Below the pieces are notes generated by a model, which saw only the letters and a program-made list of their open reading frames with translations, ran no database searches and was not told the DNA's origin. The position numbers were made by a program, and so were the translations under genes. From IMG/VR virus record IMGVR_UViG_2531839524_000011: a stretch of DNA of 38,945 nt, one strand, 5' to 3'. Source of the DNA: a virus (lineage: Duplodnaviria; Heunggongvirae; Uroviricota; Caudoviricetes). Shown one piece after another: positions 1 through 32,621 of this stretch. Each line of letters begins with the position of its first letter. Position 1 is the stretch's first letter.

Positions 1-1005
1 TTAATCCCCCGTGGACACTGCGTGGACACTCACGCCACCTTTCAGCGGATTAAGGGCCACCGCATCCTGCAGGTAATCCGGTGCAAAATGTGCATATGCC
101 ATTGTTTGCTGAATGGTTGCGTGGCCAAGAATCTTCTGAAGCGCAATAATGTTTCCTCCGTTCATCACAAAATGGCTGGCGAACGTATGCCGCAGCACAT
201 GTGCAGCCTGGCCTTTTGGTAAATCGGGCTTAACTCTTTTCAGCGCCAAGCAGAATTCCCGGTACTTCACCTCAAACAAGCCGCCTGTTTCTCTGGTTTT
301 GATCGCCTCACAAACTGCCTGCGAAATTGGCACCGTTCTCTTTCGGCCATTTTTGGTTTCAAGAAACGTTACACGGTTATGAACTATCTGTTCACCACGA
401 AGCTTACAAGCTTCACTCCAGCGCGCCCCTGTGCTTAAACACAAAAGCGCAACACGCCAGTAGTCGCCATCCAGTGTATCGAGCAATAGCGCTACTTCCT
501 TCTGGGACAGGAAAGCCATTTCTCGCGGGGATACATAAAGAATGGAGATCCCCCTTACCGGATGTTCTGCATCCCAAAGGCCTATTCTTTTCAGAACAGT
601 AAACATGCCGGATAGTCGGTTCATGTACCTGTTAGCAGATGACGGTTTCAATCCAGCAGCTATCTTTTGAGAACGCCACGCGATAATTTTCAGCTTATCA
701 AGATCCACAGCCTGCATATCAGCGCCAAGCTCATTGATTATGTTGCACAGTTGTTTTCGGTCTTCTTCCGCCTTACGCCTGTGCTGGCCGTGATACATCC
801 ACCACAACTCAAGCAAATCATTTAGCGTTCGACGATCACGGTAGCCCTGTATATATTCCCGCTTTTCAGCGTTCGCCATGATGTAGCGTTCAGTGGCCAC
901 CGCTACCGATTTTTTGTCAAATACCTTACGCACGCGCTTTCCCTTGCGTCCGTTCGGCCTGATGTCCAGCAAATAACGACCATCTTCGAGCTTCTTAATC
1001 GACAT
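1..1005 (-). CDS. int: Phage integrase, tyrosine recombinase (P2 Int-like)
   Basis: 339-aa minus-strand ORF; C-terminal catalytic region HVLRHTFASHF...LGHATIQQTMAYAHF typical of tyrosine recombinases; N-terminus MSIKKLEDGRY; ATG at 1003..1005 preferred over the TTG at 1018..1020; position at prophage left end. Confidence 0.9.
   Translation of the reverse strand: MSIKKLEDGRYLLDIRPNGRKGKRVRKVFDKKSVAVATERYIMANAEKREYIQGYRDRRTLNDLLELWWMYHGQHRRKAEEDRKQLCNIINELGADMQAVDLDKLKIIAWRSQKIAAGLKPSSANRYMNRLSGMFTVLKRIGLWDAEHPVRGISILYVSPREMAFLSQKEVALLLDTLDGDYWRVALLCLSTGARWSEACKLRGEQIVHNRVTFLETKNGRKRTVPISQAVCEAIKTRETGGLFEVKYREFCLALKRVKPDLPKGQAAHVLRHTFASHFVMNGGNIIALQKILGHATIQQTMAYAHFAPDYLQDAVALNPLKGGVSVHAVSTGD
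11..29. repeat. Candidate attL core (direct repeat of 37764..37783), overlapping the int 3' end
   Basis: gtggacactgcgtggacac here versus tgtggtcactgcgtggacat at 37764..37783; shared cactgcgtggaca core. Confidence 0.35.
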
Positions 1006-1101
1006 CGCGAAGCCCTCCAATGAACCGCTCTACAATTTCTCCAGCCTCTTTCCAGCAATAATCAGACCAGACAAAAAGCAGGTCTAACCAGTTTTCTGGC
1101 C

Positions 1102-1422
1102 TCAGCGGGGTAATTTTTGTTTTGTTTCGGTTGAACTCTGATCGCCCTCCAAACTGGAGAAGCCATCAAGAGAGAGAGCCGGAGAAATTTGCCCAACCTC
1201 CGGCATCGTTTCATCTGTTGATAACCAATAAGCATACTTCTTAAATTTTGGGTGTTTCGTAACCTTAAGTAAGGCCCCCTCTGTTACTTGCTTCCCCCTC
1301 ACCTCATAGTTAGTTACCGTCCCATAAGGCAGCCCAACACAATCCGCAAACTCCTGGCGGGTCATACCTTCTGCTTCACGAATCAGGCGAAATTTTTCCC
1401 CCATGCTTGACAAAGATGCCAT
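1102..1422 (-). CDS. C: Immunity repressor, P2 C-type (HTH)
   Basis: Translation ...FADCVGLPYGTVTNYEVRGKQ...KHPKFKKYAYWLSTDETMPEVGQISPALS matches my recollection of P2 C; divergent from cox; start at ATG 1420..1422 (MASLSSMGEKF) preferred over upstream in-frame ATGs. Confidence 0.8.
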   Translation of the reverse strand: MASLSSMGEKFRLIREAEGMTRQEFADCVGLPYGTVTNYEVRGKQVTEGALLKVTKHPKFKKYAYWLSTDETMPEVGQISPALSLDGFSSLEGDQSSTETKQKLPR

Positions 1423-1536
1423 ATCGGGCATATCCTCCATCACAAACATGCCACATCGGGCACATACATAAAAAAGCTCAAATAAGCCTATATAAGCCAT
1501 TTTGAGCCATTCGAACGAATTAAGGAGATTACCACA
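1423..1536. promoter_or_regulatory. Lysis/lysogeny switch region: divergent repressor and early promoters with operators (inferred)
   Basis: Intergenic between divergent C (-) and cox (+); contains short direct repeats (agccatt twice); assignment by position only. Confidence 0.45.
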
Positions 1537-1824
1537 ATGAGCGAATCAGAGCTTGAGGGGTTCATTCAGGTAGCACCATATCCACTTGAAGCGGTGCCAT
1601 ATCAACTATTTGCCAAGATGATTGGTCGCAAAGAATCAACCGTCAGAACCATGATTGACGCTGCAAAGTTACCAACAATTGACTTTGTAAAACCAGGTTC
1701 AGTGAAGACGCGAGCATCAGAAAACTGGGTATATCTGCCAGCATTTAACGCAGGTATGCGCAAAGCATTTTTTGATCAGCCGAAAGAGCGCCGCGACGCA
1801 TGGTTGCTCTGGCTGGGTCTTTGA
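1537..1824 (+). CDS. cox: Cox-like excisionase / early-promoter regulator
   Basis: 95 aa; VPYQLFAKMIGRKESTVRTMID...NWVYLPAFNAGMRKAF...RRDAWLLWLGL resembles P2 Cox as I recall it; first gene of the rightward early operon. Confidence 0.85.
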   Translation: MSESELEGFIQVAPYPLEAVPYQLFAKMIGRKESTVRTMIDAAKLPTIDFVKPGSVKTRASENWVYLPAFNAGMRKAFFDQPKERRDAWLLWLGL

Positions 1825-1835
1825 CGAGGATTTTT

Positions 1836-2177
1836 ATGAGACAACAACGTAATTCACGCTTTCGCAATGGCGCAGAACGCCATGCTAACCGTTTCGCTAC
1901 CAGCGCATCACGTAGCAGCTCTCGCTACAGCCTGAGCGAAACACACGCAACGCCGGATGGCTACCCCGTAAAACAAATCGGCGAACACGCCTGGCTGATT
2001 GAGAAAGCTGGAATCGTGGTCCACAAATGCCCGCGTAATCCGTTTACCGGAAGCCGCATTTTTGCCCTGAGCAGCGGCGACAATCAGTTCGGACAGGATT
2101 TCACATTATACGAAGCACTACGCACGGTTGATCGTCTGCTTCGCGGGCAAAGTTTTATTAAACAGGCTGATTTATAA
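1836..2177 (+). CDS. Hypothetical early protein
   Basis: ORF with ATG at 1836 (MRQQRNSRF...); early-operon position; no recognisable motif. Confidence 0.45.
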   Translation: MRQQRNSRFRNGAERHANRFATSASRSSSRYSLSETHATPDGYPVKQIGEHAWLIEKAGIVVHKCPRNPFTGSRIFALSSGDNQFGQDFTLYEALRTVDRLLRGQSFIKQADL

Positions 2178-2187
2178 CAGGTGCTTT

Positions 2188-2475
2188 ATGACTAAAGACC
2201 ATGCACAAGGTGTATTTATCCGTTTTATTGATTTTCGCGGTGAACTGTTATTACGTGCATCCGCTATTGATGGAGTGACTACGGCGGGGAAAAACGGAGC
2301 CGACGAAGCCACTTACGTTTATCTGAACGGTACGCGACTGCTTGTGGAACTTCCGTACCAGACCGTACGAGAAATCATTAGCGAAGCTGAAAAGGCACGC
2401 CAGGTTCATGGCGATGAACCCTATATCGAAATTATTTGTATGGATTCAGAAGCTGAAATCCAGAAAGCAGATTAA
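2188..2475 (+). CDS. Hypothetical early protein
   Basis: 95-aa ORF from ATG 2188 (MTKDHAQGVF...); same-strand early operon. Confidence 0.5.
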   Translation: MTKDHAQGVFIRFIDFRGELLLRASAIDGVTTAGKNGADEATYVYLNGTRLLVELPYQTVREIISEAEKARQVHGDEPYIEIICMDSEAEIQKAD

Positions 2476-2486
2476 AGGGTGTTGCG

Positions 2487-2729
2487 ATGGGCAAAGAATA
2501 TAAAACTCTCATTAACAAAGCACTTGAGCGTTTTTATTTTCGCTTAAGCGCATCAGGCACTCATGCTGAACGTGCAGCCCGTGACTCATTGACCAGGGCA
2601 ATCCGGAGTCTGTATGACGTGGCTTTTTACGCTGATGATCTGGATGCACTTAACGAACTTTCTGAGCTTATCTGCGCCGCAGAATGCGGGGAACATATTG
2701 AACCGTATAAGCTGGGGAATATCGCATGA
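2487..2729 (+). CDS. Hypothetical early protein
   Basis: 80-aa ORF tightly packed after the preceding gene. Confidence 0.5.
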   Translation: MGKEYKTLINKALERFYFRLSASGTHAERAARDSLTRAIRSLYDVAFYADDLDALNELSELICAAECGEHIEPYKLGNIA

Positions 2730-2839
2730 GTATATTTATCTCATGGCTTGTTATGATTATTTCGGTGGCCTGCGCCATTGGGATTATGCGAATTATTCAT
2801 TCAGTAAAAAAGATCGAACGTTTTTTCACTGGTGAATAA
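2726..2839 (+). CDS. Possible small hydrophobic membrane peptide (37 aa)
   Basis: ATG at 2726 overlapping the upstream stop (ATGA); MSIFISWLVMIISVACAIGIMRIIHSVKKIERFFTGE has one predicted TM helix; below the ORF-track length cutoff. Confidence 0.3.
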   Translation: MSIFISWLVMIISVACAIGIMRIIHSVKKIERFFTGE

Positions 2840-2931
2840 CCATACAAATAAAACATCAGGTTAAATAAGAAAACGTGAAAACAATCCGCATGCGCGGAGG
2901 TATTCGCACACGTAAATAACGGAGATATAAA

Positions 2932-3342
2932 ATGAATGCAAAAGAAGAAGGTATTATCAGAGCACTGAAAGAAATTTCAAAGATGGAAAGCGAAGTGGCG
3001 AAAAAAGCCGTAGCAAATAATCATATAGACGTCGCTACCCACACAATGATAGTTGCAAAAGTCACGGCAGAAGCCGCCAAAATCATCGAAGAACAGGGTG
3101 CGGAACTTACGCTTTTCAAAACTCAACCAGTCACCGGACTGGATTTATCTAACACCGGACGCCTTATTTACACAATTGGCTCAGAGCCACAGCGATACAC
3201 CATTATCGCCGGATTACAGGACAAATACCTGATCACTCCTTACCCCATAAGGGAATCAGCGCTTCTGACAAATCTCCACCTGATAGAGCGCTCTCAGGTC
3301 GCATTCATTGATGACGCCCAACACACCGTATTTAACGCATAG
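2932..3342 (+). CDS. Hypothetical protein (136 aa) in a lower-GC stretch
   Basis: ORF with upstream aacggagat RBS-like sequence; no recognisable motif. Confidence 0.55.
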   Translation: MNAKEEGIIRALKEISKMESEVAKKAVANNHIDVATHTMIVAKVTAEAAKIIEEQGAELTLFKTQPVTGLDLSNTGRLIYTIGSEPQRYTIIAGLQDKYLITPYPIRESALLTNLHLIERSQVAFIDDAQHTVFNA

Positions 3343-3353
3343 GGTTACTGGAC

Positions 3354-3370
3354 AAAAAAAAGGGGGGGGG
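3354..3370. repeat. Homopolymeric A8-G9 tract immediately upstream of the ATG at 3373
   Basis: aaaaaaaa ggggggggg directly visible at 3354..3370; occupies the RBS/spacer of the following ORF. Confidence 0.9.
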
Positions 3371-3372
3371 CA

Positions 3373-3576
3373 ATGGCAATTAAGCATTTTCCCGTCGTTC
3401 GCTTTACCTCCAGAGGACGTGAATACGAAGTCGACGAACGCCTGATTACCACTATCGACAAACATCGTTCGGAAAAGGATGCACACCACATCTACCTCAC
3501 TGACGGCACTTACTTCTGCGCCACCAACGTGGCGCGAGTAAATCTTATCCGACAGGTACAGGAGCAGCGTAAATGA
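3373..3576 (+). CDS. Hypothetical protein (67 aa)
   Basis: ORF; stop overlaps the next start (ATGA at 3573). Confidence 0.5.
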   Translation: MAIKHFPVVRFTSRGREYEVDERLITTIDKHRSEKDAHHIYLTDGTYFCATNVARVNLIRQVQEQRK

Positions 3577-3791
3577 GCAGAAGGCGAATCACACGCAGGC
3601 ATCGCCGCACACACATGAATTCCTTACCGACGCTGAAAGAACTCATTCAACACGAGATCGCTGATTTCTGCGCAACGCTGGGGTCGCCTGGCGAACCGGA
3701 AACACCAGAAGCGATGCAGCGCGAACTCATGATGCGCATCGATAACGTTTTTGACTTTTTCCTGAATAACAAAAGAGGGCAATCAACATGA
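3573..3791 (+). CDS. Hypothetical protein (72 aa), arginine-rich N-terminus
   Basis: MSRRRITRRHRRTH...; translationally coupled to flanking genes. Confidence 0.5.
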   Translation: MSRRRITRRHRRTHMNSLPTLKELIQHEIADFCATLGSPGEPETPEAMQRELMMRIDNVFDFFLNNKRGQST

Positions 3792-3991
3792 ACAAAAAGA
3801 CTTGGTTTCGCGCATACATGTGGGCGCTGGTATGCGTCCTCATTTCTATCATTCTGTATGCAGGACTACTCCCCCGAATGATTTCATCAGACAGCTCCTT
3901 CCTGGTATTGCTGGGCATTTTCATTGCCATGCTGTACCCGGCAGGCGTTGTTCGCCTTTTCAGTAAGTACATCAAGGAAATCAAACAATGA
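3788..3991 (+). CDS. Small two-TM membrane protein (possible NfeD-like partner of the SPFH protein)
   Basis: 67 aa with two hydrophobic helices (WALVCVLISIILYAGLL and FLVLLGIFIAMLYPAGVV); 4-bp overlap with the downstream SPFH gene. Confidence 0.55.
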   Translation: MNKKTWFRAYMWALVCVLISIILYAGLLPRMISSDSSFLVLLGIFIAMLYPAGVVRLFSKYIKEIKQ

Positions 3992-4818
3992 AGAAATTCA
4001 GACTCTTTCAGATTATCCCGCTTTTTGCCGCCATCCTGCTGGTTGGTTGCGATCGCGTTGAGCCAGGTAATGTGGGCATCAAAGTCAACAAACTGGGCGA
4101 CGACAAAGGCGTCGGTGAAGTGGTTGGCGTTGGCCGCTACTGGACAGGCTGGAATACAGAGGTTTACATCTTCCCGACCTTCAAACAAATGAAGACCTAC
4201 GATGAGCCGTTCAGCTTCCAGATGAGCGACGGCACAACCATCGGCTATCACATCGGTGTGACCTACAAGGTTGATCCATCCAAAGTTACCACAGTGTTTC
4301 AGACCTACCGCAAAGGCGTGGATGACATTACCGACACTGACCTGCGCCAGAAGATCGCCGATGCACTCAACCGACTGGCCAGCAAAATGACCACCGATAA
4401 GTTTATCGACGGTGGTAAGTCTGAACTGCTGGATTCAGCACTTAAAGATATTCAGGAAGAGATGACCCCCATCGGCATTCAGGTCATGAGCCTCTCTTAT
4501 GTCGGTAAACCGGAATATCCGCCAACCGTTATCGACAGCATTAACGCCAAAGTCACGGCAAACCAGAAAACCCTGCAACGTGAACAGGAAGTCAAGCAAC
4601 GCGAAGCTGAAGCCAACATGCTGCGCGCAGAAGCTGCCGGACAGGCCGATGCCATTCGCACAAAAGCCCAGGCTGAAGCCGACGCCATTCGTTTACGCGG
4701 CGAAGCTCTGCGCCAGAATCCCGGCGTTATGGAGCTGGAAGCGATCAACAAATGGAACGGCACGCTGCCGCAATACATGACCAGTAACACCGCTGTTCCG
4801 TTCGTTCCCGTGAAGTAA
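3988..4818 (+). CDS. SPFH/band-7 (stomatin-prohibitin-flotillin-HflK/C-like) lipoprotein
   Basis: 276 aa; lipobox LLVGC after the signal peptide; band-7-like core and a C-terminal coiled-coil alanine/glutamate-rich segment (QREAEANMLRAEAAGQADAIRTKAQAEADAIRLRGEAL) typical of HflC/K-like proteins. Confidence 0.75.
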   Translation: MKKFRLFQIIPLFAAILLVGCDRVEPGNVGIKVNKLGDDKGVGEVVGVGRYWTGWNTEVYIFPTFKQMKTYDEPFSFQMSDGTTIGYHIGVTYKVDPSKVTTVFQTYRKGVDDITDTDLRQKIADALNRLASKMTTDKFIDGGKSELLDSALKDIQEEMTPIGIQVMSLSYVGKPEYPPTVIDSINAKVTANQKTLQREQEVKQREAEANMLRAEAAGQADAIRTKAQAEADAIRLRGEALRQNPGVMELEAINKWNGTLPQYMTSNTAVPFVPVK

Positions 4819-4849: not shown

Positions 4850-5185
4850 AGCAGTATCAGGATTTTTTAGTATGCCGTTCTCACAAAAAAACCGCTTGCC
4901 ATGCCGCAATCAGTCAGGTTACATTTCCGCTGCACCTCACAAAACGGGTGCCGGGTTTCGCAGCCTGCTGACTACACAAGCGCACAACCGCGCCAGCGGT
5001 TTTTTTGTGCGTACTGTATTGCCACGTTTTTTTCGCGTCAGAATTATGGCGGGGCGTACGGGGCCGACTTCGGTCGGGCCGGGTTCTTGTGTAGCCGGGA
5101 CTGCGAACCTCGTACGTCTCGCCACCCACAGTTTCGCAGCTCTGGATGGTGAGTTTTCACAACTTACTACACAAGGGGCCACACC
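4850..5185. other. GC-rich structured non-coding interval (candidate sRNA / regulatory or replication-associated element)
   Basis: No convincing ORF with an RBS; nested hairpins including gggccgac-ttcg-gtcgggcc enclosed by gcgtacg...cgtacgt (5054..5117); terminator-like ccgcgccagcggttttttt at about 4989..5007; direct repeat actacacaag at 4970 and 5166. Confidence 0.3.
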
Positions 5186-5416
5186 ATGGCAAACCGCAAA
5201 CCACACCGCGCTATCGCGGAGCGTCGTCACATCCAGACTGAAATCAACCGCAGACTTTCCCGCGCATCACGCGTCGCGCAAATCATGCACATCAATATGT
5301 TGCATGAGCGCAGCCACGCACTATCAAACATTTATTCCGCCTCTGTTTTCAGCTATCTGGCGGATGATCTGCACGAGCTTCAACAGCTCATCCAGCAGCA
5401 AAACAAACTCCATTAA
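5186..5416 (+). CDS. Hypothetical protein (76 aa)
   Basis: ORF preceded by aagggg RBS-like sequence 7 nt upstream of the ATG. Confidence 0.45.
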   Translation: MANRKPHRAIAERRHIQTEINRRLSRASRVAQIMHINMLHERSHALSNIYSASVFSYLADDLHELQQLIQQQNKLH

Positions 5417-5488
5417 TTCCTGTTCCGGGCCTTTCCTGCACCTTGCGGCGGGAGGCCTTCGCACATCTGTAACAAGAGGATTGCCGCA

Positions 5489-5854
5489 ATGATTCTCGCC
5501 AACGACTTTCTTGAATACCTGCTCAACACAGAACGTGATCTTGCCGCCCGCGTGCGTGATCGTTATGACATGTACCTGAAATCCCTGCCTGTACCGCAGC
5601 TCGCTGACGGAAAGATTGTTATTGATGGTCGCTACATGATTGACAGCCACGAGGGAAATTACAGGCTTTACCGCATTGAAGGTGGCACCCCGTCCGTTAT
5701 TGGCATTTACCAGCGCCCATCCTCTGCAATCGTCGATGTGATTGCCGACAGCATCCGCATCACACATCGCCATGCCGACACAGAAGACACCGTGCTGGAA
5801 ATTCAGCGGCTGGCTACAGTCTGCCGCGACACCCTGAATGGCATGACGAAGTAA
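5489..5854 (+). CDS. Hypothetical protein (121 aa)
   Basis: ORF immediately upstream of gene A. Confidence 0.55.
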   Translation: MILANDFLEYLLNTERDLAARVRDRYDMYLKSLPVPQLADGKIVIDGRYMIDSHEGNYRLYRIEGGTPSVIGIYQRPSSAIVDVIADSIRITHRHADTEDTVLEIQRLATVCRDTLNGMTK

Positions 5855-5860
5855 ATCACT

Positions 5861-8683
5861 ATGACGGCAGAGTACATCAGGGACTGGCAACAACCGCGCC
5901 ACGCAGTGGGGCGTGAAGGAACGGGGATCCCCACTCCTGAATCCGCGCTTTCCTCCTGGCTGGATGCCTACCGGGCAGAGAACGAGCGCCGCCAGGAAAT
6001 GGCTGATGCGGCGTTCTCCGCCACGCCGCTGGGCAACCTGATTAATAAAAGCCTGGACGCACAGGAAAAACAGGACAAAACCATCACACTGGCAGGAGAC
6101 GCCAGAAAGCAGGCACGCGGCGCGGTGGATGAAGCCATGGCCTCGCTGCGCCTGCTGCCGTCCTATCTGCGCGATCCGCTTATTCGCCACCTCTCCTTCC
6201 TGCGCAAAAAACAGGAATCTGACCGCCAGAAAGGTAAAAAGAACCAGCAGGCTGAACGCTACGCGCGCGGGACCCTGCGCAAAATATTCGAACGTCTGGA
6301 CCGCACCGACCACCGCTGGCTGACACCGGGTTATCGCGCCCTTGCCGGACGCGAACGCCTGGATGATTTGCTTTACCTCCCGCAGCTCAACAAGCACCAG
6401 ATACAGACGCTGGCCACCATGACGGCGGCGATGTTCAGCAGCACCTTCGAAAAACTCTGCGATGGCTTTGGCGCAACCGATGGCGAGCTGACCATGGATG
6501 TAACCCTGAAGGCGTATCAGATGCTGGCCCGCATGGCGTTACACCTGCACGCCATGCCTCCACATTATGACGCACTGACAACAGACAAAGACCGGAGGAA
6601 CGAACCGGACACGGAGCTGCTGCCGGGCGCAATCCTTCGCCTGACCTGTGCGGAATGGTGGAAACGCAAACTGTGGCTGTTACGTTGCGAGTGGAGAGAA
6701 GAACAACTCCGCGCCGCCTGTCTGGTTTCCAGAAAAACATCGCCCTATCTGAGCCAGGACGCGTTAAGCGAGTTTCGCGCACAGCGCGAGAAGACACGCG
6801 ATTTCCTGAAAAGTTTCATGCTGGAAAACGAAGACGGGTTCACGATTGATCTCGAGACAGTGTATTACGCGGGAGTAAGTAACCCGGTTCACCGTAAGGC
6901 AGAAATGATGGCCACCATGAAGGGACTGGAACTTCTGGCCGAAGCCCGTGGCGACAGAGCGGTGTTTCTGACTGTCACCTGCCCGTCAAAATACCACGCC
7001 ACAACAGAGAACGGTCATCCGAATCCCAAATGGAACGGGGCCACCATGCGCGACTCCAGCGATTACCTGGTTAACACGTTTTTTGCGGCTGTCCGCAAAA
7101 AACTGAACCGCGACGGTCTGCGCTGGTATGGCATCCGCACGGTGGAGCCTCACCATGACGGCACCGTGCACTGGCATATGATGGTCTTTGCTCATCCGGA
7201 AGAAATCGACACCATTGTGTCCCACACCCGCGATATTGCCATTCAGGAAGACCGCCACGAGCTGGGCGATGACATAACTCCGCGCTTTAAGGCGGAGTAC
7301 GTCGACGGCTCAAAAGGCACACCAACCAGCTACATCGCCACCTACATCGGAAAGAACCTGGACAGCCACGCCGTGGATGGCATCGACCCGAAAACGGGCA
7401 AGCCACGCGTTGACCACGAAACCGGAAAATCAATGGCCGAGAGCGTGGAGCGCGCCATCGGCTGGGCACGCCTTCACCGGGTCCGCCAGTTCCAGTTCTT
7501 TGGCATTCCCTCCCGTCAGGTGTGGCGTGAACTCCGCCGCCTTGCCAGCCAGATAGCACGCAACCCGGAAGGCCCGCAACGGCTGAAGGATGATGCAATG
7601 GATGCGGTACTCGCTGCCGCTGATGCCGGATGTTTTGCCACCTACATTGAAAAACAGGGCGGCGTACTTGTTCCACGCAAGGACTACCTGATTCGCACCG
7701 CCTACGACCTCGCCGATGAGCTGAACGATTACGGCGAACAGAGCGTACAGATTTACGGGATCTGGTCACCACTCATCGGGGAATCCTCCCGTGTGTGCAC
7801 GCATCCGGATAACTGGAAGCTGGTAAGACGCAAACCGGAAGCGAAAGACAGCGCCCGCGAAAATGGTTTTGACCTTCAGGGCGGCCCTGCCGCCCCTTGG
7901 ACTCGTGGCAATAACTGTCCCCGTGTACAGGAAACGGACAACAACGGGACAGAACAGCCGGAAGAACGGCCAGCACCGTGGCCGCAGCTTCCTGACGGCG
8001 TTGACGTGAATGAATGGATGCGCTCACTGAAACGGCACGAACGCCGGGCGCTGATGCGTTCGCTGCGTGACAAACAGGCAAAAAACAGCAGTGATGAGAT
8101 GCAGAGCTGGACACAGAGCCGCAAACAGCCGCGGCCTTTGCCTGATAACCACGAATTACTCGCTAAAGAATGGCGGGAGTCTGCTGAATCTCTCGGCCTG
8201 CATATCGGTGAACAGCAAATGCAGCACCTGTTACGGGGCGGCAGTCTGTACGTTGACGGCAGCATCATTGCACCGCAGGGATTTGAAATTGTACGCAAAC
8301 CGGATACCCGCCCGGACAGCCGAATCACGCAGCTCTGGCTGCGCCTGAGCCGTAATCACGGCGTAAGCAGCACGGAGATCCGCCATAACCCGGTCGCCAG
8401 TTATCTGGAACAGCTAGGGGCATCAGCCCCCGAAGCCGCCGCACGCCTGGCATCCACACTTCAGCAAGACCAGAACACCATGAAAACACCCGTTACCGTG
8501 CTTTCTGACATGCTGCGCGCCATCCGCGACGCAGAGCACGCGCAGAGAATCAGTGAAACTGCTGAACGCGCCCGCCGCAAAGCAGACCTGCTGCGGGGTG
8601 GCCTGACCAGCGGAAACAAAAAACAGACAGAAACGGGATTCACAAATCCCGTAAATGAGCAAAAAACGCGCCGCGATATATGA
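5861..8683 (+). CDS. A: Rolling-circle replication initiator (P2 gpA-like HUH endonuclease)
   Basis: 940 aa; HUH motif in GTVHWHMMVFAHPEE and paired catalytic tyrosines in TPTSYIATYIGKN, as in P2 A / phiX174 A-type initiators; position after the early genes. Confidence 0.9.
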   Translation: MTAEYIRDWQQPRHAVGREGTGIPTPESALSSWLDAYRAENERRQEMADAAFSATPLGNLINKSLDAQEKQDKTITLAGDARKQARGAVDEAMASLRLLPSYLRDPLIRHLSFLRKKQESDRQKGKKNQQAERYARGTLRKIFERLDRTDHRWLTPGYRALAGRERLDDLLYLPQLNKHQIQTLATMTAAMFSSTFEKLCDGFGATDGELTMDVTLKAYQMLARMALHLHAMPPHYDALTTDKDRRNEPDTELLPGAILRLTCAEWWKRKLWLLRCEWREEQLRAACLVSRKTSPYLSQDALSEFRAQREKTRDFLKSFMLENEDGFTIDLETVYYAGVSNPVHRKAEMMATMKGLELLAEARGDRAVFLTVTCPSKYHATTENGHPNPKWNGATMRDSSDYLVNTFFAAVRKKLNRDGLRWYGIRTVEPHHDGTVHWHMMVFAHPEEIDTIVSHTRDIAIQEDRHELGDDITPRFKAEYVDGSKGTPTSYIATYIGKNLDSHAVDGIDPKTGKPRVDHETGKSMAESVERAIGWARLHRVRQFQFFGIPSRQVWRELRRLASQIARNPEGPQRLKDDAMDAVLAAADAGCFATYIEKQGGVLVPRKDYLIRTAYDLADELNDYGEQSVQIYGIWSPLIGESSRVCTHPDNWKLVRRKPEAKDSARENGFDLQGGPAAPWTRGNNCPRVQETDNNGTEQPEERPAPWPQLPDGVDVNEWMRSLKRHERRALMRSLRDKQAKNSSDEMQSWTQSRKQPRPLPDNHELLAKEWRESAESLGLHIGEQQMQHLLRGGSLYVDGSIIAPQGFEIVRKPDTRPDSRITQLWLRLSRNHGVSSTEIRHNPVASYLEQLGASAPEAAARLASTLQQDQNTMKTPVTVLSDMLRAIRDAEHAQRISETAERARRKADLLRGGLTSGNKKQTETGFTNPVNEQKTRRDI

Positions 8684-20199: not shown

Positions 20200-20653
20200 T
20201 TCCCTGCGTGAAGCCATGACCCGTTCATGCCGATGGTGTCAGGCCAACCCGGAAAAATTCACCATTTTCGTGGAGAGCGGCAACATTGAAACGACCGGAG
20301 AAACGCCCTCGTTTGTTTACCGCTATCAGATGGTGATGTTTGTCATGGATTACGCCGGGGAGTTGGATGACCTCACGCTGCCGCTGCTGGCGTGGTTATC
20401 CGAAAATCAGCCACAGTTGTTGCTCAACCCTGAGCGTAATCAGGACATCAAATTCTCCGCCGTTATCAATGACGATGACAGCGCCGACCTCCTGTTTACG
20501 CTCCCCCTGCGGGAACGCGTTCGCATCACGCGCAACAGTCAGGGCACACCGCAGGCAGAACACCTGCCGGAGCCAAAACCCCGTCTGCCCTCTTCCGAAG
20601 GCGACTGGTCGCATGTATTCCAGGATGTGACGTGGGGTGAAAGCGATGGATAA
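20186..20653 (+). CDS. R: Tail completion protein (P2 gpR-like)
   Basis: 155 aa; order and size match P2 R. Confidence 0.8.
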   Translation: MLKTDSLREAMTRSCRWCQANPEKFTIFVESGNIETTGETPSFVYRYQMVMFVMDYAGELDDLTLPLLAWLSENQPQLLLNPERNQDIKFSAVINDDDSADLLFTLPLRERVRITRNSQGTPQAEHLPEPKPRLPSSEGDWSHVFQDVTWGESDG

Positions 20654-21281
20654 GGCATTCACCCGCGTGGATGAAACCTTTGAGGCCATCCGCGACAGCC
20701 TGAATCAGCAGGCCATCAATAACATCGCCAGAAAGCTGGCACAGGATTTACGCCGCGCCCAGCAGGCGCGTATCCGGTCACAGAAAGCGCCGGACGGGAC
20801 CGCGTGGACACCACGCAGACGCCGCGTAACCCGGATACAGGAACGCATTCGCTTTATCTGGAATAACGAAGCACGCACGCTGAAAAACTGGCATCACGAC
20901 ACGGGGAAATACGGGCGAACCATTACCGGGGGGGATGAGGATAAAAACAATATCCGCACGTTTTACCGGGATGACATCGACCGTTTTCTGGAAATACGCA
21001 CCCGGCGCATCAACCAGGACAGCACAAAGCGCGTCCCCATGTTCGTAAAACTGCGCACCGCCCGCTACCTGAAAGCCCGTGCAGATGCTTCCGGTGTGAC
21101 GGTGGGTTACAGCGGCGTGGCCGCACGTATTGCACGCGTTCATCAGTTCGGTGAGCGCGATCAGGTTGCGCCGGGCATTTTCACCGATTACCCGGTACGT
21201 GAGCTGCTGGGTATCAGCCAGGCAGATGAGCGCCTGATTTATAACACGGTGCTGGGCCGGATTGCGGAGGCTGTACGGTGA
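20646..21281 (+). CDS. S: Tail completion protein (P2 gpS-like)
   Basis: Position between R and V; ATG 20646 (alternative 20637). Confidence 0.8.
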   Translation: MDKAFTRVDETFEAIRDSLNQQAINNIARKLAQDLRRAQQARIRSQKAPDGTAWTPRRRRVTRIQERIRFIWNNEARTLKNWHHDTGKYGRTITGGDEDKNNIRTFYRDDIDRFLEIRTRRINQDSTKRVPMFVKLRTARYLKARADASGVTVGYSGVAARIARVHQFGERDQVAPGIFTDYPVRELLGISQADERLIYNTVLGRIAEAVR

Positions 21282-29297: not shown

Positions 29298-32141
29298 TCA
29301 ATCTTTATCGTAAAAACTGCCACGCCCGGCACGGGCACGCCGTTCCATTTCTGCCCTGACCATTTCACCGACCAGTTTCGCCAGTTCGCGGGGATTCTGC
29401 GTAACAACGTTATGCAGATGAACATGAATTTCATCGCCAAATCCTGAGGCAACAGGTTCCCGGTTACGCGAAGGTGTTGGGGCTGATGCCACTGGCGATC
29501 GTATGGCCTCCGCCACCGGGCGGGAGCTGGCCGCAACAACAGGGACCAGCGCCGGAGGCAGCGGGGCCGGAACCACAGGCGTGATATTAATTGCGGGGGC
29601 AGGCTTACTGACCTGCGCAATCTTCCGCTCCTGCCACTCCCCACGAACGGCAAGTGCGCGGGGCAGGTTCTTAAAGACAATATCGCCGGGGCCAATGCGT
29701 TTTTTCGTCTCATCAACCAGCTTACCTGTGTTATCAGCAATTTTGCTGAGTCTGCGTAGCGTACCGGTATTGCTGTCTGTGAGCGGTTTGTTGTCTTTGG
29801 GTTTATCACCTCCGGTGCCATTGCCATTTTCCACAGGCTTCGGCGGATTGATTTTCGCCAGGTCACCCTGAAGCAAGGCAACCTTGTCCTGAAGAATGGC
29901 CGCACGCTGTGCGTCTTCGATTTTCTTTCTCGCCCTTTCCGCTTCATCCGGAAGCACACCGAGTTTTTCAAGTATCCACGCCAGCGTATCCAGCAACATT
30001 TTTGCTGGCGTCAGAACAAGCTGTAACGCGCCACCAAGAACGTTACCGAATATCTCGCCAGCACTGGTACATTTATCCAGAGTTTCCTTGCTGGACTCCA
30101 TCGGTGACAGCAGCGATTTAAACCAGTTAAACACCTGGCTGATCCCACTCCCGATTGCGTCAAAAACAGGACCAAACCGTTCAAAGGTTTCGCGCAACGG
30201 GGTCAGCCTTTCCATAATCCCGCTGAACACCCCGGCAAAAAATGCCCTGATGGGATCCCAGTATTTCCAGATAAGAACGGCAGCTCCGGCAAGCGCAGCC
30301 ACGATAAGACCAACCGGACTGAACAACGCCCCGATAGCGCCTCCCAGTAAAGAAACGGAACCCGTCACCATTCCCCATAGTGCTGGCAGAACCCTGACAG
30401 CATTCATTGATCCGGTCAGGAGGGAAAAACCAAGACGCAGTTTTGCCAGCGGGCCAGCAAGCACACCAATAGCCAGCGACAACGAGCCAACCGTTGCAGT
30501 CATTGCCAGCAGTGCACCGCCTGCAATCAGTAGCTGGCGCGTCAGTGCGGGATGGGCCTGCGCCAGCGCCGTCACCTTTGATACCACACGCGTGAGCCAC
30601 TGCGTGACAGAACGCAGCGGACCGTCAATCAGATCTGCAATGCGGATGCGCAACCCTTCCCATGCACTGCTGAGTGATTTCAGATCGCCGTCAAGGTTGT
30701 TGGCCATAACCTTTGCCGTGCGTTCAGCCTCACCGCGCGCGCCTTCAAGTTCTTTTCTCAGTTTGGGTAAGGAGCCGTCACCTGCCGCATCAACGAGGGC
30801 CATAAATGATGTGAAAGCCTCTTCTCCGGCAATGTCCTTAAAGAACGATACCCGGTCAACTTCCCCGTATTTGCGGGTAGCTTTATAAAGGTCAGCCAGC
30901 ACATCCTCCATCGGGCGCATTTTGCCCCCGGCATCCGAGACAGACACGCCAAGCTCTTTCAGCGCCTCTGCTGCCGCCTTTGGCGGTGATGCCAGACGAG
31001 CCAGGCTGGCACGCATTGCCGTACCAGCATCACTCCCCCTGATACCCATATTCGCCAGTACGCCCGCCATCGCTGCGGCCTGCTCCAGCGATATTCCCAG
31101 CTTACCCGCCACCGGACCTGCATATTTCATGGTTTCACCCAGTGCGCGAAGGTCAGTGTTGGTACGGGTAAACGCTGTGGTGAGTGTGTCGCCGACCCGG
31201 TCCATCTGGTCAGCAGAAAGACCGAACTGCGTCAGAATATTTGAGCCAATATCCGCCGTCTCACCGAGGTCCATACCGCCAGCCGTTGCCATGCTCAGTA
31301 CGCCAGGGAGCGCAGCCTGAATGGCCTGTGGTGTAAAGCCAGCCATTGCAAGAAATGCCTGTCCACTGGCGGCATCGCCTGCGGTGAACTGCGTTTCAGA
31401 GCCAAGTTTTAACGCCTGCTCACGCAGCGCCTTAAACTGCGGGCTGTTCTGGTCGATTCGCGTCAGTGCCTGAACGCGGGACATCTCTTTGCCGAACCCG
31501 ATCGCAGGCTGCAAAAAACGCCCGGCAGCATAGCCGCCCGCCGCTGCCGCACCAATTGCCAGCGCACCACCTGTTTTCAGTTTTCCCGCTGTTTCCTGCG
31601 CGCGCGAATACCGCTCACGCGCCCGTGTTACACGCGCAAGCGCCTGCCGTTCGCGTTCAAGCTGGTTGTTGTACTGTTCGGTGCGTCTGATGGCCTGCTG
31701 GATGGTGTTATCGCTGCCTGTCAGGGAAATGCCGTGGCGTTTCAGCTCTCCGCCAAGCTCCCGCATTTTCTGAATTTCCCGTGTGCGCGATTCATTCAGG
31801 CGTTCAAGCCGGGTGCTTAACTGCTGCATCAGCTTTTGTTGTTTTTCGCTGAGCACTGTACCCGTGCGTTGTAACTGATTAAGGGCGTTAAGCTGGCGTC
31901 GCGCTTTCACGATACCCGCATCCGCTTTACTGACAGCGTCGCGGGCGCGCTCAAATGAACGCGCCTGACGCTCGAGATTTTTGATCGCCCCCTGCGTTCG
32001 CTGGATGGAGTCACCAAACCGCCCCATCAGGCGGCGGGCGTTTTCGGCAGGTCGGGTCAGCCTGTCAACGGCGCTGAAAGCGACCCGGATATCAAGAGTC
32101 TTCATTGTCTGCATTCCCGCTGCGAAGTGCCGCCCGCTCAC
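29298..32141 (-). CDS. T: Tail tape measure protein (P2 gpT-like)
   Basis: 947 aa; coiled-coil N-terminal part, long Gly/Ala-rich hydrophobic central region; position between E/E' and U. Confidence 0.9.
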   Translation of the reverse strand: MSGRHFAAGMQTMKTLDIRVAFSAVDRLTRPAENARRLMGRFGDSIQRTQGAIKNLERQARSFERARDAVSKADAGIVKARRQLNALNQLQRTGTVLSEKQQKLMQQLSTRLERLNESRTREIQKMRELGGELKRHGISLTGSDNTIQQAIRRTEQYNNQLERERQALARVTRARERYSRAQETAGKLKTGGALAIGAAAAGGYAAGRFLQPAIGFGKEMSRVQALTRIDQNSPQFKALREQALKLGSETQFTAGDAASGQAFLAMAGFTPQAIQAALPGVLSMATAGGMDLGETADIGSNILTQFGLSADQMDRVGDTLTTAFTRTNTDLRALGETMKYAGPVAGKLGISLEQAAAMAGVLANMGIRGSDAGTAMRASLARLASPPKAAAEALKELGVSVSDAGGKMRPMEDVLADLYKATRKYGEVDRVSFFKDIAGEEAFTSFMALVDAAGDGSLPKLRKELEGARGEAERTAKVMANNLDGDLKSLSSAWEGLRIRIADLIDGPLRSVTQWLTRVVSKVTALAQAHPALTRQLLIAGGALLAMTATVGSLSLAIGVLAGPLAKLRLGFSLLTGSMNAVRVLPALWGMVTGSVSLLGGAIGALFSPVGLIVAALAGAAVLIWKYWDPIRAFFAGVFSGIMERLTPLRETFERFGPVFDAIGSGISQVFNWFKSLLSPMESSKETLDKCTSAGEIFGNVLGGALQLVLTPAKMLLDTLAWILEKLGVLPDEAERARKKIEDAQRAAILQDKVALLQGDLAKINPPKPVENGNGTGGDKPKDNKPLTDSNTGTLRRLSKIADNTGKLVDETKKRIGPGDIVFKNLPRALAVRGEWQERKIAQVSKPAPAINITPVVPAPLPPALVPVVAASSRPVAEAIRSPVASAPTPSRNREPVASGFGDEIHVHLHNVVTQNPRELAKLVGEMVRAEMERRARAGRGSFYDKD

Positions 32142-32310
32142 GCCAGCTAACCACTTCGCCGGGCGTCATCATGAAGATTTCGGCGGGCGACCAGTTAAAA
32201 ATAACGGCAATATCTGCCACAAAGTCTTCTATGTGCTCAAAGCACACAACCGTGATCAGGCTTCCGTCGCCTGTTCGTTCTTCCCGCCAGAGTCCGCACC
32301 GCTCAAAAAA
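32092..32310 (-). CDS. E' frameshift extension of the tail assembly chaperone (E+E' product made by -1 slippage)
   Basis: The -1 frame is open across the slippery heptamer T-TTT-TTG (minus strand, plus coordinates 32304..32310) and continues RKFFERCGLW... to a stop overlapping the T start. Confidence 0.5.
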   Translation of the reverse strand, partial: FFERCGLWREERTGDGSLITVVCFEHIEDFVADIAVIFNWSPAEIFMMTPGEVVSWRERAALRSGNADNEDS

Positions 32311-32621
32311 TTTACGGCAACCACACATAACTGAATAAAGTCACGGGATGCCATTTTTTTGATCGTCACTTCATCCAGTCGCGGTGATGTCACGCGTGAC
32401 AGCAGCGTAAACATGGATTCCGCTTTCAGATTCAGCACATCAGACAGCGACAAATCTCGCAGAGATCCAGCCTGCTCAATAGCCCCGGTGATCTCCACAT
32501 ACGTGATTTTTTCGCCGCTTCGCTCAATTGGTTGGGTAAGTTTTACGCCACGCTCACTGGTTTCTTTCACAGTGTCAGTAACTACCGTGTTTTCGGTATC
32601 GATGTTTTTCGTCTCTTTCAT
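32256..32621 (-). CDS. E: Tail assembly chaperone (P2 gpE-like)
   Basis: 121-aa ORF between the tail tube and tape measure genes; contains the slippery site near its 3' end. Confidence 0.75.
   Translation of the reverse strand: MKETKNIDTENTVVTDTVKETSERGVKLTQPIERSGEKITYVEITGAIEQAGSLRDLSLSDVLNLKAESMFTLLSRVTSPRLDEVTIKKMASRDFIQLCVVAVNFLSGADSGGKNEQATEA

What the first reader, a model, noticed from the sequence alone, without database searches (positions are those of the whole stretch)
3354..3370. A8-G9 homopolymeric tract occupying the ribosome-binding region of an early ORF
The sequence aaaaaaaa ggggggggg lies 2 nt upstream of the ATG at 3373. Long G-tracts are prone to slipped-strand mispairing, so changes in tract length would alter Shine-Dalgarno spacing and strength. 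This may act as a phase-variable translational switch for the downstream 67-aa and possibly following coupled genes, or it is a sequencing/assembly trouble spot.
Basis: seen in the sequence. Interest (0 to 1): 0.4.

Follow-up and report, generated by a model that had tools for sequence, protein, structure and literature searches.

The report
Hypervariable poly-A/poly-G ribosome-binding site
The ribosome-binding site of a small early gene in a P2-like E. coli prophage has grown into a slippery A8G9 run whose length differs between otherwise identical prophages, which probably tunes translation of this gene and perhaps the three genes coupled to it, but has not been shown to switch it on and off.

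Summary
The tract is real: A8 at 3354-3361, G9 at 3362-3370, then CA, then the ATG at 3373. It is the Shine-Dalgarno region of a conserved 67-aa early gene in a P2-like (Xuanwuvirus/P88-type) E. coli prophage.

About 95% of relatives carry an ordinary short site here (AAAGGGGGCGCA|ATG or AAGGAGGCGTA|ATG). A minority of roughly 3% carries expanded runs: A6-8 G6-12 CA, A7GAG6-8 CA, and A3 G6/11/13 CGCA. Prophages with 0 differences in 800 flanking bases carry G6 versus G10, or G8, G9 and G12. The tract therefore mutates far faster than its surroundings, and the range is too wide for ±1 homopolymer sequencing errors.

There is no promoter, frameshift fusion or complementary phage sRNA at the site. 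A rough thermodynamic model predicts graded rather than on/off effects:
- G6 or shorter is about 5-40-fold weaker, because the spacing is too short.
- G7-G10 is near the optimum.
- The window's G9 sits at aligned spacing 5.

Three clonal strain sets show no change in the assembled tract length.

The parts
3354..3361 (+). A8 run, the 5' half of the tract. It is an A-rich leader directly upstream of the SD core. Relatives carry A3, A4, A6, A7 or A8.
3362..3370 (+). G9 run, the 3' half of the tract. It supplies the anti-SD pairing. Relatives carry G4 to G13.
3360..3366 (+). Best predicted Shine-Dalgarno register, AAGGGGG, which pairs with the 16S 3' end through one G-U wobble. Duplex energy is -11.2 kcal/mol and aligned spacing is 5.
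   Evidence: own rough model built on ViennaRNA duplexfold
3373..3576 (+). 67-aa early gene (phrog_3459, function unknown). It is predicted to be a small all-beta protein. The ATG start and the N-terminus MAIK are conserved in relatives.
2932..3342 (+). Upstream 136-aa gene (phrog_9338). Its TAG stop lies 30 nt before the ATG, so the tract is intergenic.
3573..3791 (+). 72-aa ORF, ATGA-overlapped with the 67-aa gene. It is the remnant of a MarR/winged-helix gene: RefSeq marks it as a pseudogene in relatives, and it is intact in others.
3788..3991 (+). 67-aa membrane protein (phrog_1130), ATGA-overlapped with the preceding ORF.
3988..4818 (+). 276-aa SPFH/Band 7 lipoprotein, ATGA-overlapped. 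It is the last gene of the coupled block.
1407..1436 (+). Candidate early promoter (TTGACA-18-TATCCT), facing the Cox gene and located within the 5' end of the divergently transcribed repressor ORF (1102-1500, -). It is the likely source of the transcript that carries the tract.
   Evidence: consensus match only; gene order

Best explanation
The A8G9 tract is the Shine-Dalgarno region of a conserved 67-aa early-operon gene in a P2-like prophage. It is an expanded, slippage-prone derivative of an ordinary site.

Origin (inferred). The ordinary form is AAAGGGGGCGCA|ATG, itself a variant of AAGGAGGCGTA|ATG. A C-to-G change in GGGGGCGCA would join G5 and G into G7. From that point replication slippage lengthens and shortens the runs at a rate that rises steeply with run length.

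Effect (predicted, not measured). The 3' end of the G run is fixed 2 nt from the ATG. Run length therefore sets the distance between the strongest pairing register, at the A/G junction (AAGGGGG), and the start codon.
- G6 or shorter leaves too little room, so initiation is low.
- G7-G10 is near the optimum; the window's G9 gives the ideal aligned spacing of 5.
- Very long runs may lose efficiency through folding of the G run onto the U/C-rich start of the gene.
- The effect is graded, like a rheostat, and not on/off.
- It may pass to the three ATGA-coupled downstream genes (inferred).

Selection. Whether the variability is selected or is a tolerated mutational runaway in a repressed lytic operon is open. 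I lean to the latter.

Shown here: tract position, SD complementarity, length polymorphism on identical flanks, and absence of a promoter or frameshift context. Inferred: the slippage mechanism, the translational effect and the coupling.
For: Position and conservation:
- The start codon and the SD position are conserved in 80 of 80 IMG/VR relatives. Every one has an SD-like purine motif ending 2 or 4 nt before the ATG.

Allele spectrum:
- IMG/VR, 82 loci: A3G5CGCA 56, A3G5TGCA 7, AAAGAGAGCGTA 6, A4G4CGCA 4, A7G6CA 3, A3G6CGCA 2, and one each of A8G7CA, A7GAG7CA, A4G5CGCA and A7G7CA.
- Metagenomes, 32 loci: 27 short forms, A3G6CGCA 3, A7G8CA 1, A8G6CA 1.
- E. coli genomes: A8G6, A8G7, A8G8, A8G9, A8G10, A8G12, A6G9, A7G6, A7GAG6/7/8 and A3G13CGCA.
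- Further IMG/VR loci: A3G11CGCA and A7G9CA.

Speed of change:
- Loci with 0 of 800 flank differences carry G6 versus G10, or G8, G9 and G12.
- Where the sequences are homologous, the other 6-7-nt runs in the same 6.8 kb are mostly unchanged (7 of 9); two T runs in the isrK/C4 region vary by 1-2 nt.
- In an evenly spaced sample of the E. coli hits, 38 of 40 full-length matches have the ancestral length. Instability is therefore confined to the expanded alleles.

Predicted effect:
- Initiation relative to the common allele, on the window-type flanks: G6 0.03-0.04, G7 0.7, G8-G9 1.4-1.5, G10 0.7, G12 0.04.
- The step between G6 and G7 recurs on a second flank haplotype.

Established knowledge:
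- Indel rates rise exponentially with homopolymer length in E. coli, and 8-bp G·C runs are already outliers in its genome (PMC8510543).
- The optimal SD-to-start distance is 5-9 nt (PMC7264876).
- Changing the SD-to-start spacer length tunes expression in E. coli (Egbert & Klavins 2012, as cited in PMC3749727).
Against: - No expression data exist. The model is a simplified re-implementation from memory of the Salis RBS thermodynamic scheme, and its results at long run lengths depend on the flank haplotype.
- Natural alleles include lengths predicted to be poor (G6), which fits neutral drift as well as tuning.
- Clonal sets show no change in the assembled consensus: 2022S01-140 and its derivative -18; 2020N21-110 with -15 and -24; ETEC1732 and ETEC1734; EC556 and EC581.
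- The downstream genes have SD-like motifs of their own, so coupling may be partial.
- All five phage records read at this site carry short sites; the other nine records that matched were not read.
- How the A run grew from 3 to 7-8 is not explained by the intermediates found.
Confidence: 0.6

Rival explanations
1. Neutral mutational hot spot. The tract is a runaway homopolymer in an intergenic spacer of a repressed lytic operon. Its length changes have no biologically meaningful effect, because the anti-SD can slide along the G run and the genes are dispensable.
For: - Only about 3% of family members have the expanded form, and the rest keep a stable short SD.
- The alleles spread over G6-G13 with no clear peak.
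- No promoter is predicted between about 2540 and 4896, so expression probably depends on the repressed early promoter.
- Rare G5-to-G6 steps (A3G6CGCA) followed by wide spread fit a length-dependent random walk.
Against: - The tract is the only SD for a conserved gene, and the 3' end of the run sits 2 nt from the ATG. Spacing physics predicts a real drop at G6 or shorter.
- The 67-aa protein is strongly conserved, with 26 invariant columns, so its expression is unlikely to be irrelevant to the phage.
Confidence: 0.27
2. True contingency locus. This would be a selected, high-frequency, reversible phase-variable translational switch. It would turn the 67-aa gene and the coupled membrane/SPFH block on and off within a clonal population.
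For: - G runs of 9-13 exceed the lengths that phase-vary in other bacteria.
- Expansions arose at least twice, in the CGCA-retaining series and in the CA series.
- The tract sits at the head of a translationally coupled block ending in a membrane lipoprotein.
- Identical flanks carry alleles predicted to be low (G6) and high (G10).
Against: - No within-clone variation is seen in three clonal sets.
- The predicted effects are graded, and every allele keeps an SD.
- E. coli is mismatch-repair proficient, and the operon is expected to be silent in lysogens.
- GA-interrupted alleles, which stabilise the run, are the most common expanded form.
Confidence: 0.1
3. Sequencing or assembly artefact. On this view the tract length in this window and in its relatives reflects homopolymer miscalls and not biology.
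For: - Long G runs are error-prone on several sequencing platforms.
- Within the window's own flank haplotype group, A8G9 was found only in the window, and its nearest neighbour PEC41 differs by one G.
Against: - The same alleles recur in unrelated assemblies. A8G12 occurs in a Taiwanese human isolate and a Chinese pig isolate. A7GAG7 occurs in seven or more genomes from Belgium, Japan, Tanzania and Malawi. A7G6 occurs in four assemblies.
- The range of 5-13 is far beyond ±1.
- The short alleles are uniform across hundreds of assemblies.
Confidence: 0.03

Closest known systems
Simple-sequence-repeat contingency loci (poly-G/poly-C phase variation in Neisseria, Haemophilus, Campylobacter, Helicobacter)
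   Same: Both involve a homopolymeric G tract of 9 or more bases, length polymorphism between near-identical strains, and slipped-strand mispairing as the presumed mechanism.
   Different: Classical tracts lie inside ORFs, where they act as frameshift on/off switches, or in promoter spacers (PMC8295292, introduction). This tract is the Shine-Dalgarno site itself. It lies in a prophage of mismatch-repair-proficient E. coli, and no high-frequency switching has been shown.
Helicobacter pylori tlpB-hp0102 leader G-repeat targeted by the sRNA RepG (PMC8295292)
   Same: [quoted passage not shown]
   Different: The H. pylori effect needs the C/U-rich loop of RepG. Here the two phage RNAs present (isrK, C4) pair with the tract no better than shuffled controls. 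The G run also acts directly as the ribosome-binding site.
Synthetic repeats in the SD-to-start spacer (rbSSR; Egbert & Klavins 2012, cited in PMC3749727)
   Same: In both, a repeat whose length sets the SD-to-start-codon distance tunes translation initiation in E. coli.
   Different: The synthetic system is engineered and its repeat is a spacer separate from the SD. Here the tract is natural and the repeat doubles as the SD, so the ribosome can slide between registers.
Moraxella catarrhalis uspA1 upstream poly(G) tract (recalled from memory, not checked here)
   Same: Both have a poly-G tract between the transcription start and the ATG, where a one-base length change alters expression.
   Different: The uspA1 effect was reported at the mRNA level and the tract is about 30 nt from the ATG, not in the SD.

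Membership tests
Shine-Dalgarno ribosome-binding site | Complementarity to the 3' end of 16S rRNA (ACCUCCUUA) | tested here: met
   AAAGGGGGG pairs over 7 bp, including one G-U wobble, with a duplex energy of -11.2 kcal/mol.
Shine-Dalgarno ribosome-binding site | Suitable distance to a conserved start codon | tested here: met
   Aligned spacing is 5 for the junction register of A8G9. The ATG is conserved in 80 of 80 relatives, and one phage uses GTG.
Shine-Dalgarno ribosome-binding site | SD-like motif at the same position in homologues | tested here: met
   Relatives carry AAGGAGGCGTA, AAAGGGGGCGCA or AAAGAGAGCGTA directly before the ATG.
SSR contingency (phase-variable) locus | Repeat tract long enough to be unstable | tested here: met
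   The window has G9 plus A8, and relatives reach G13. Runs of 8 G·C are already outliers in E. coli (PMC8510543).
SSR contingency (phase-variable) locus | Length polymorphism between closely related strains | tested here: met
   Loci with 0 of 800 flank differences carry G6 versus G10, or G8, G9 and G12.
SSR contingency (phase-variable) locus | High-frequency reversible switching within a clone | tested here: inconclusive
   Consensus tracts are identical in three clonal sets. Consensus assemblies cannot reveal minority variants, and no reads were available.
SSR contingency (phase-variable) locus | Length change alters expression or phenotype | not testable with these tools
   Only a rough thermodynamic prediction is available, giving about 5-40-fold between G6 and G8-G9.
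sRNA-targeted G-repeat (RepG/tlpB type) | Cognate sRNA with a C/U-rich loop complementary to the repeat | tested here: not met
   The isrK and C4 duplex energies with the tract (-17.5 and -17.7) are weaker than the shuffled means (-22.6 and -24.0). No C-rich pyrimidine run lies in an RNA gene of the window. Host-encoded sRNAs were not tested.
Phase-variable promoter-spacer tract | Tract lies between the -35 and -10 hexamers | tested here: not met
   No sigma-70-like match on the + strand between 2540 and 4896.
Programmed frameshift or transcriptional-slippage site | Tract inside a coding sequence, joining two overlapping frames | tested here: not met
   The tract is intergenic: the upstream stop is at 3340-3342 and the start is at 3373. 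The longer 'extended' homologues are start-codon choices made by gene callers in other contexts.

The most novel reading that the evidence does not exclude
A natural mutable rheostat embedded in a ribosome-binding site of an E. coli temperate phage. Slippage in the SD homopolymer would continuously diversify the translation level of an early gene and of its coupled membrane/SPFH block among sibling prophages. That would give the phage or its lysogen a heritable but rapidly reversible spread of expression states, for example for induction outcome or superinfection behaviour. Such a contingency mechanism has not been described for E. coli or for P2-like phages.
Probability: 0.12. Interest if true: 0.65.

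Novelty: new variant of a known kind. Interest (0 to 1): 0.4.

Why it matters
E. coli is usually considered poor in repeat-based contingency loci, and repeat-driven variation is normally described for reading frames and promoters. This is a naturally occurring, demonstrably hypervariable homopolymer that is itself a ribosome-binding site, at the head of a translationally coupled gene block. It would be a simple test bed for three questions: how SD length and register set initiation, whether temperate phages use mutable translation signals, and how fast G9-G13 runs really change in a repair-proficient host. There is also a practical point. This site is a place where prophage assemblies and typing schemes will disagree, and where gene callers pick different start codons.

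Tried and rejected
- Promoter-spacer hypothesis: no sigma-70-like site near the tract.
- Terminator on the minus strand (C9T8): none reported at this position.
- Frameshift or fusion with the overlapping frame that starts at 3308/3311: the extended homologues of 84-88 aa come from other upstream contexts or from gene-caller choices, and are not tract-dependent fusions.
- sRNA targeting in the RepG style: isrK and C4 pair with the tract no better than shuffled controls, and no C-rich loop exists elsewhere in an RNA gene.
- Function of the 67-aa protein:
  - no Pfam, NCBIfam or PADLOC family;
  - PHROG of unknown function;
  - no PDB sequence relative;
  - the AlphaFold model is all-beta (pLDDT 83), with only weak Sso7d/Tudor-like matches at E > 0.1 and TM of 0.49 or less among the Sso7d/Sac7d matches (0.56 or less overall).
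- Scan of GTDB species representatives for the locus: 0 hits.
- Literature searches found no description of this tract.
- One search failed on syntax, and one paper is not held in the library.

Full report
**Observation.** The sequence reads ggac-A8-G9-ca-ATG. A8 is at 3354-3361, G9 at 3362-3370, and the ATG at 3373 opens a 67-aa ORF, 3373-3576. G9 is the longest G/C run in the 38.9-kb window. A G9 alone is not improbable: 0.31 are expected and 18 of 100 shuffles contain one. The composite A8G9 was not matched in any of 100 shuffles.

**Context.** The window is a P2-like (Peduoviridae, Xuanwuvirus/P88-type) E. coli prophage.
- The left end carries an integrase (1-1020, -), a repressor (1102-1500, -) and Cox (1537-1824, +).
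- A string of small early genes follows, and then a GpA-type replication endonuclease at 5861-8683.
- A typical P2 morphogenesis block comes after that.
- The best promoter match is TTGACA-18-TATCCT at 1407-1436, facing Cox.
- No promoter-like site is predicted on the + strand between about 2540 and 4896.
- The tract therefore lies inside the early-operon transcript. It sits in the 30-nt gap between a 136-aa gene (stop at 3340-3342) and the 67-aa gene.
- The 67-aa gene is joined to three further ORFs by ATGA stop/start overlaps at 3573, 3788 and 3988. These are a 72-aa remnant of a MarR-type gene, a 67-aa membrane protein and a 276-aa SPFH/Band 7 lipoprotein.

**What relatives have at this position.** The gene is common. 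Matches occur in 1,186 of 5,426 complete E. coli genomes and in 261 IMG/VR stretches. In all 80 loci inspected first, the ATG is preceded by a purine-rich SD ending 2 or 4 nt upstream. The three ordinary forms are:
- AAGGAGGCGTA, in a different upstream gene context;
- AAAGAGAGCGTA;
- AAAGGGGGCGCA, by far the most common form in the window's context.

Counts in the window's context are as follows.

| Source | Loci | Short forms | Expanded or altered forms |
|---|---|---|---|
| IMG/VR | 82 | A3G5CGCA 56, A3G5TGCA 7, AAAGAGAGCGTA 6, A4G4CGCA 4 | A7G6CA 3, A3G6CGCA 2, and one each of A8G7CA, A7GAG7CA, A4G5CGCA, A7G7CA |
| Metagenomes | 32 | 27 | A3G6CGCA 3, A7G8CA 1, A8G6CA 1 |

A looser scan of IMG/VR added A3G11CGCA and A7G9CA. 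Complete or high-quality E. coli genomes add these alleles:

| Allele | Genomes |
|---|---|
| A8G10 | PEC41 |
| A8G9 | 2022S01-140 |
| A8G8 | 639 |
| A8G7 | EC556, EC581 |
| A8G6 | W13-16 |
| A7G6 | CP189652 |
| A6G9 | AH21B060 |
| A8G12 | 2020N21-110, HNSQ2209 |
| A3G13CGCA | MINF_1A |
| A7GAG6 | UPEC132, N50, GCA_030346625 |
| A7GAG7 | ETEC1732, ETEC1734, ETEC4090, JBEHAAB-19-0176, PRO_A-1504, fS10a |
| A7GAG8 | 266917_2 |

In an evenly spaced sample of the E. coli hits, 38 of 40 full-length matches have the ancestral length. Expanded alleles therefore make up roughly 3% of the family. The five phage records read at this site all carry short sites; nine further phage records that matched were not read.

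**Is the variation real and fast?**
- Loci whose 400 + 400 flanking bases are identical carry A7G6 versus A8G10, or A8G8, A8G9 and A8G12. Loci that differ at one or two flanking positions carry further alleles.
- That amounts to at least three length changes against at most one substitution in 800 nt. By inference, the per-site rate is orders of magnitude above the substitution rate.
- Where the sequences are homologous, the other 6-7-nt homopolymers in the same 6.8 kb are mostly unchanged in the same assemblies; two T runs near isrK/C4 vary by 1-2 nt.
- The short alleles are uniform across hundreds of genomes.
- The same expanded alleles recur in unrelated assemblies from different continents.
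- Homopolymer miscalls could shift any single assembly by ±1, including this window. They cannot generate this pattern.
- Pairs or sets of clonal isolates have identical consensus tracts. The rate is therefore not so high that the majority allele changes over short passages. Consensus sequences say nothing about minority variants.
- The behaviour fits what is known for E. coli: indel rates rise exponentially with run length, and 8-bp G·C runs are already outliers in its genome (PMC8510543).

**Likely history (inferred).**
- A single C-to-G change turns AAAGGGGGCGCA into A3G7CA without changing the total length. That would carry the run past the length at which slippage becomes frequent.
- The CGCA-retaining series (G5, G6, G11, G13) shows that a second, independent expansion route exists.
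- The GA-interrupted alleles differ from pure alleles by one transition: A7GAG7 corresponds to A7G9, and A7GAG6 to A7G8. As expected for an interrupted repeat, they vary less (G6-8, mostly G7).
- The growth of the A run from 3 to 7-8 is not explained. The only intermediates seen are A4 and A6.

**What it does (predicted).**
- The G run pairs with the CCUCC core of the anti-SD through a central G-U wobble, and the two preceding A bases extend the helix. The duplex energy is -11.2 kcal/mol.
- The 3' end of the run is fixed 2 nt from the ATG. Run length therefore sets the distance from the A/G junction register to the start codon.
- The estimate comes from a simplified thermodynamic initiation model. 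It sums duplex energy, a spacing penalty and the unfolding cost. The spacing function and constants of the Salis scheme were recalled from memory, so the numbers are rough.
- On the window's flanks, predicted initiation relative to the common allele is: G6 0.03-0.04, G7 0.7, G8 1.45, G9 1.5 (aligned spacing 5, the optimum), G10 0.7 and G12 0.04.
- The fall at long lengths comes from the G run folding onto the UUUUCCC stretch at codons 6-8.
- On the second natural flank haplotype the step between G6 and G7 recurs, about 20-fold. The decline at long lengths is mild there, and G12 remains above the common allele.
- The robust prediction is therefore a threshold at about G7 followed by a broad optimum. 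The effect is graded rather than binary. This agrees with the reported optimal SD-to-start distance of 5-9 nt (PMC7264876) and with engineered spacer-length tuning in E. coli (Egbert & Klavins 2012, via PMC3749727).
- A-rich leaders are also known to favour initiation. This is my own knowledge and is not in the model.
- Transfer of the effect to the three ATGA-coupled genes is plausible but untested. Those genes have purine-rich motifs of their own (GGAG 8 nt before 3573, AGAGGG 9 nt before 3788).

**Alternatives examined.**
- The tract is not in a promoter spacer and not in a terminator.
- It is not a frameshift or fusion site. The 84-88-aa 'extended' homologues are start-codon choices made by gene callers in other contexts.
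- It is not matched by the two RNAs encoded nearby (isrK, C4). Their predicted duplexes with the tract are weaker than those of shuffled controls.
- The function of the 67-aa protein stays unknown. It has no Pfam, NCBIfam or PADLOC family and no PDB sequence relative. Its PHROG has unknown function. It is predicted to be a small all-beta protein with only weak Sso7d/Tudor-like fold similarity.

**Comparison with known systems.**
- Mechanistically this is a simple-sequence-repeat hot spot of the kind that underlies phase variation in Neisseria, Haemophilus, Campylobacter and Helicobacter.
- The closest natural analogue in function is the variable G repeat in the H. pylori tlpB-hp0102 leader, which gives gradual control of an operon. 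That system works through the sRNA RepG (PMC8295292), for which no counterpart was found here.
- The closest analogue in principle is the engineered repeat in the RBS spacer.
- Membership in the class 'contingency locus' is not established. Tract length and inter-strain polymorphism are met. Within-clone switching is inconclusive. A phenotype cannot be tested with these tools.

**Verdict.**
- The site is a genuinely hypervariable Shine-Dalgarno homopolymer (confidence about 0.9).
- A graded effect on translation is likely but unmeasured (about 0.5-0.6).
- A selected on/off switch is unlikely (about 0.1).
- The find is moderately interesting: a new variant of a known kind.

Noticed in passing
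window 4932-5006 (+) and 5042-5129 (+): Rfam hits above the gathering score to isrK (64.1 bits) and to C4 antisense RNA (77.7 bits). They lie in the gap between the SPFH gene and the replication gene. This is a P1/P7-type antisense immunity RNA module inside a P2-like early region. RefSeq annotates an 'ash family protein' pseudogene at the same place in relatives. The long ORFs 4872-5492 (+) and 5324-6397 (-) that overlap it are probably spurious.
   Followed up: partly
window 3573-3791 (+): The 72-aa ORF matches only positions 34-99 of phrog_4144. RefSeq marks it as an N-terminally truncated pseudogene in relatives. Other relatives carry an intact MarR/winged-helix regulator at this position.
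   Followed up: partly
window 3364-3372: A mosaic boundary. In many prophages and phages, homology to the window begins exactly at or just before the start codon, with a different upstream gene and a canonical AAGGAGGCGTA site. The 67-aa gene is therefore a shuffled module, and the junction falls at its ribosome-binding site.
   Followed up: partly
window 32354-32360 (minus-strand mRNA: AUC AAA AAA AUG): An A7 run inside the 121-aa ORF 32256-32621 (-). A 78-aa ORF (32092-32328, -) in another frame follows, just upstream of the tape-measure gene. This looks like the tail-chaperone (P2 E/E+E'-type) programmed frameshift site.
   Followed up: partly
window 20928-20937: A G7 run directly followed by ATG, inside ORF 20637-21281 (+). 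It is the second-longest G run in the window. It was not compared across relatives.
   Followed up: no
window 3988-4818 with 3788-3991: An SPFH/Band 7 lipoprotein is paired with a small membrane protein in the early operon of a P2-like phage. The lipoprotein shows weak HflK/HflC similarity only, and there is no PADLOC defence hit. Its role in the phage is unknown.
   Followed up: partly
L165 versus L166 (ETEC1732 versus ETEC1734), locus 3888-4091: Two near-identical sister genomes differ in whether the small membrane-protein gene is annotated. This hints at a sequence or annotation difference there.
   Followed up: no
window 1-2900 versus L163-L168: The window's integrase, repressor and Cox region differs strongly from that of the closest relatives of the tract region: about 920-980 mismatches in 6.6 kb, concentrated on the left. 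The immunity region is therefore of a different type, which is further mosaicism.
   Followed up: no
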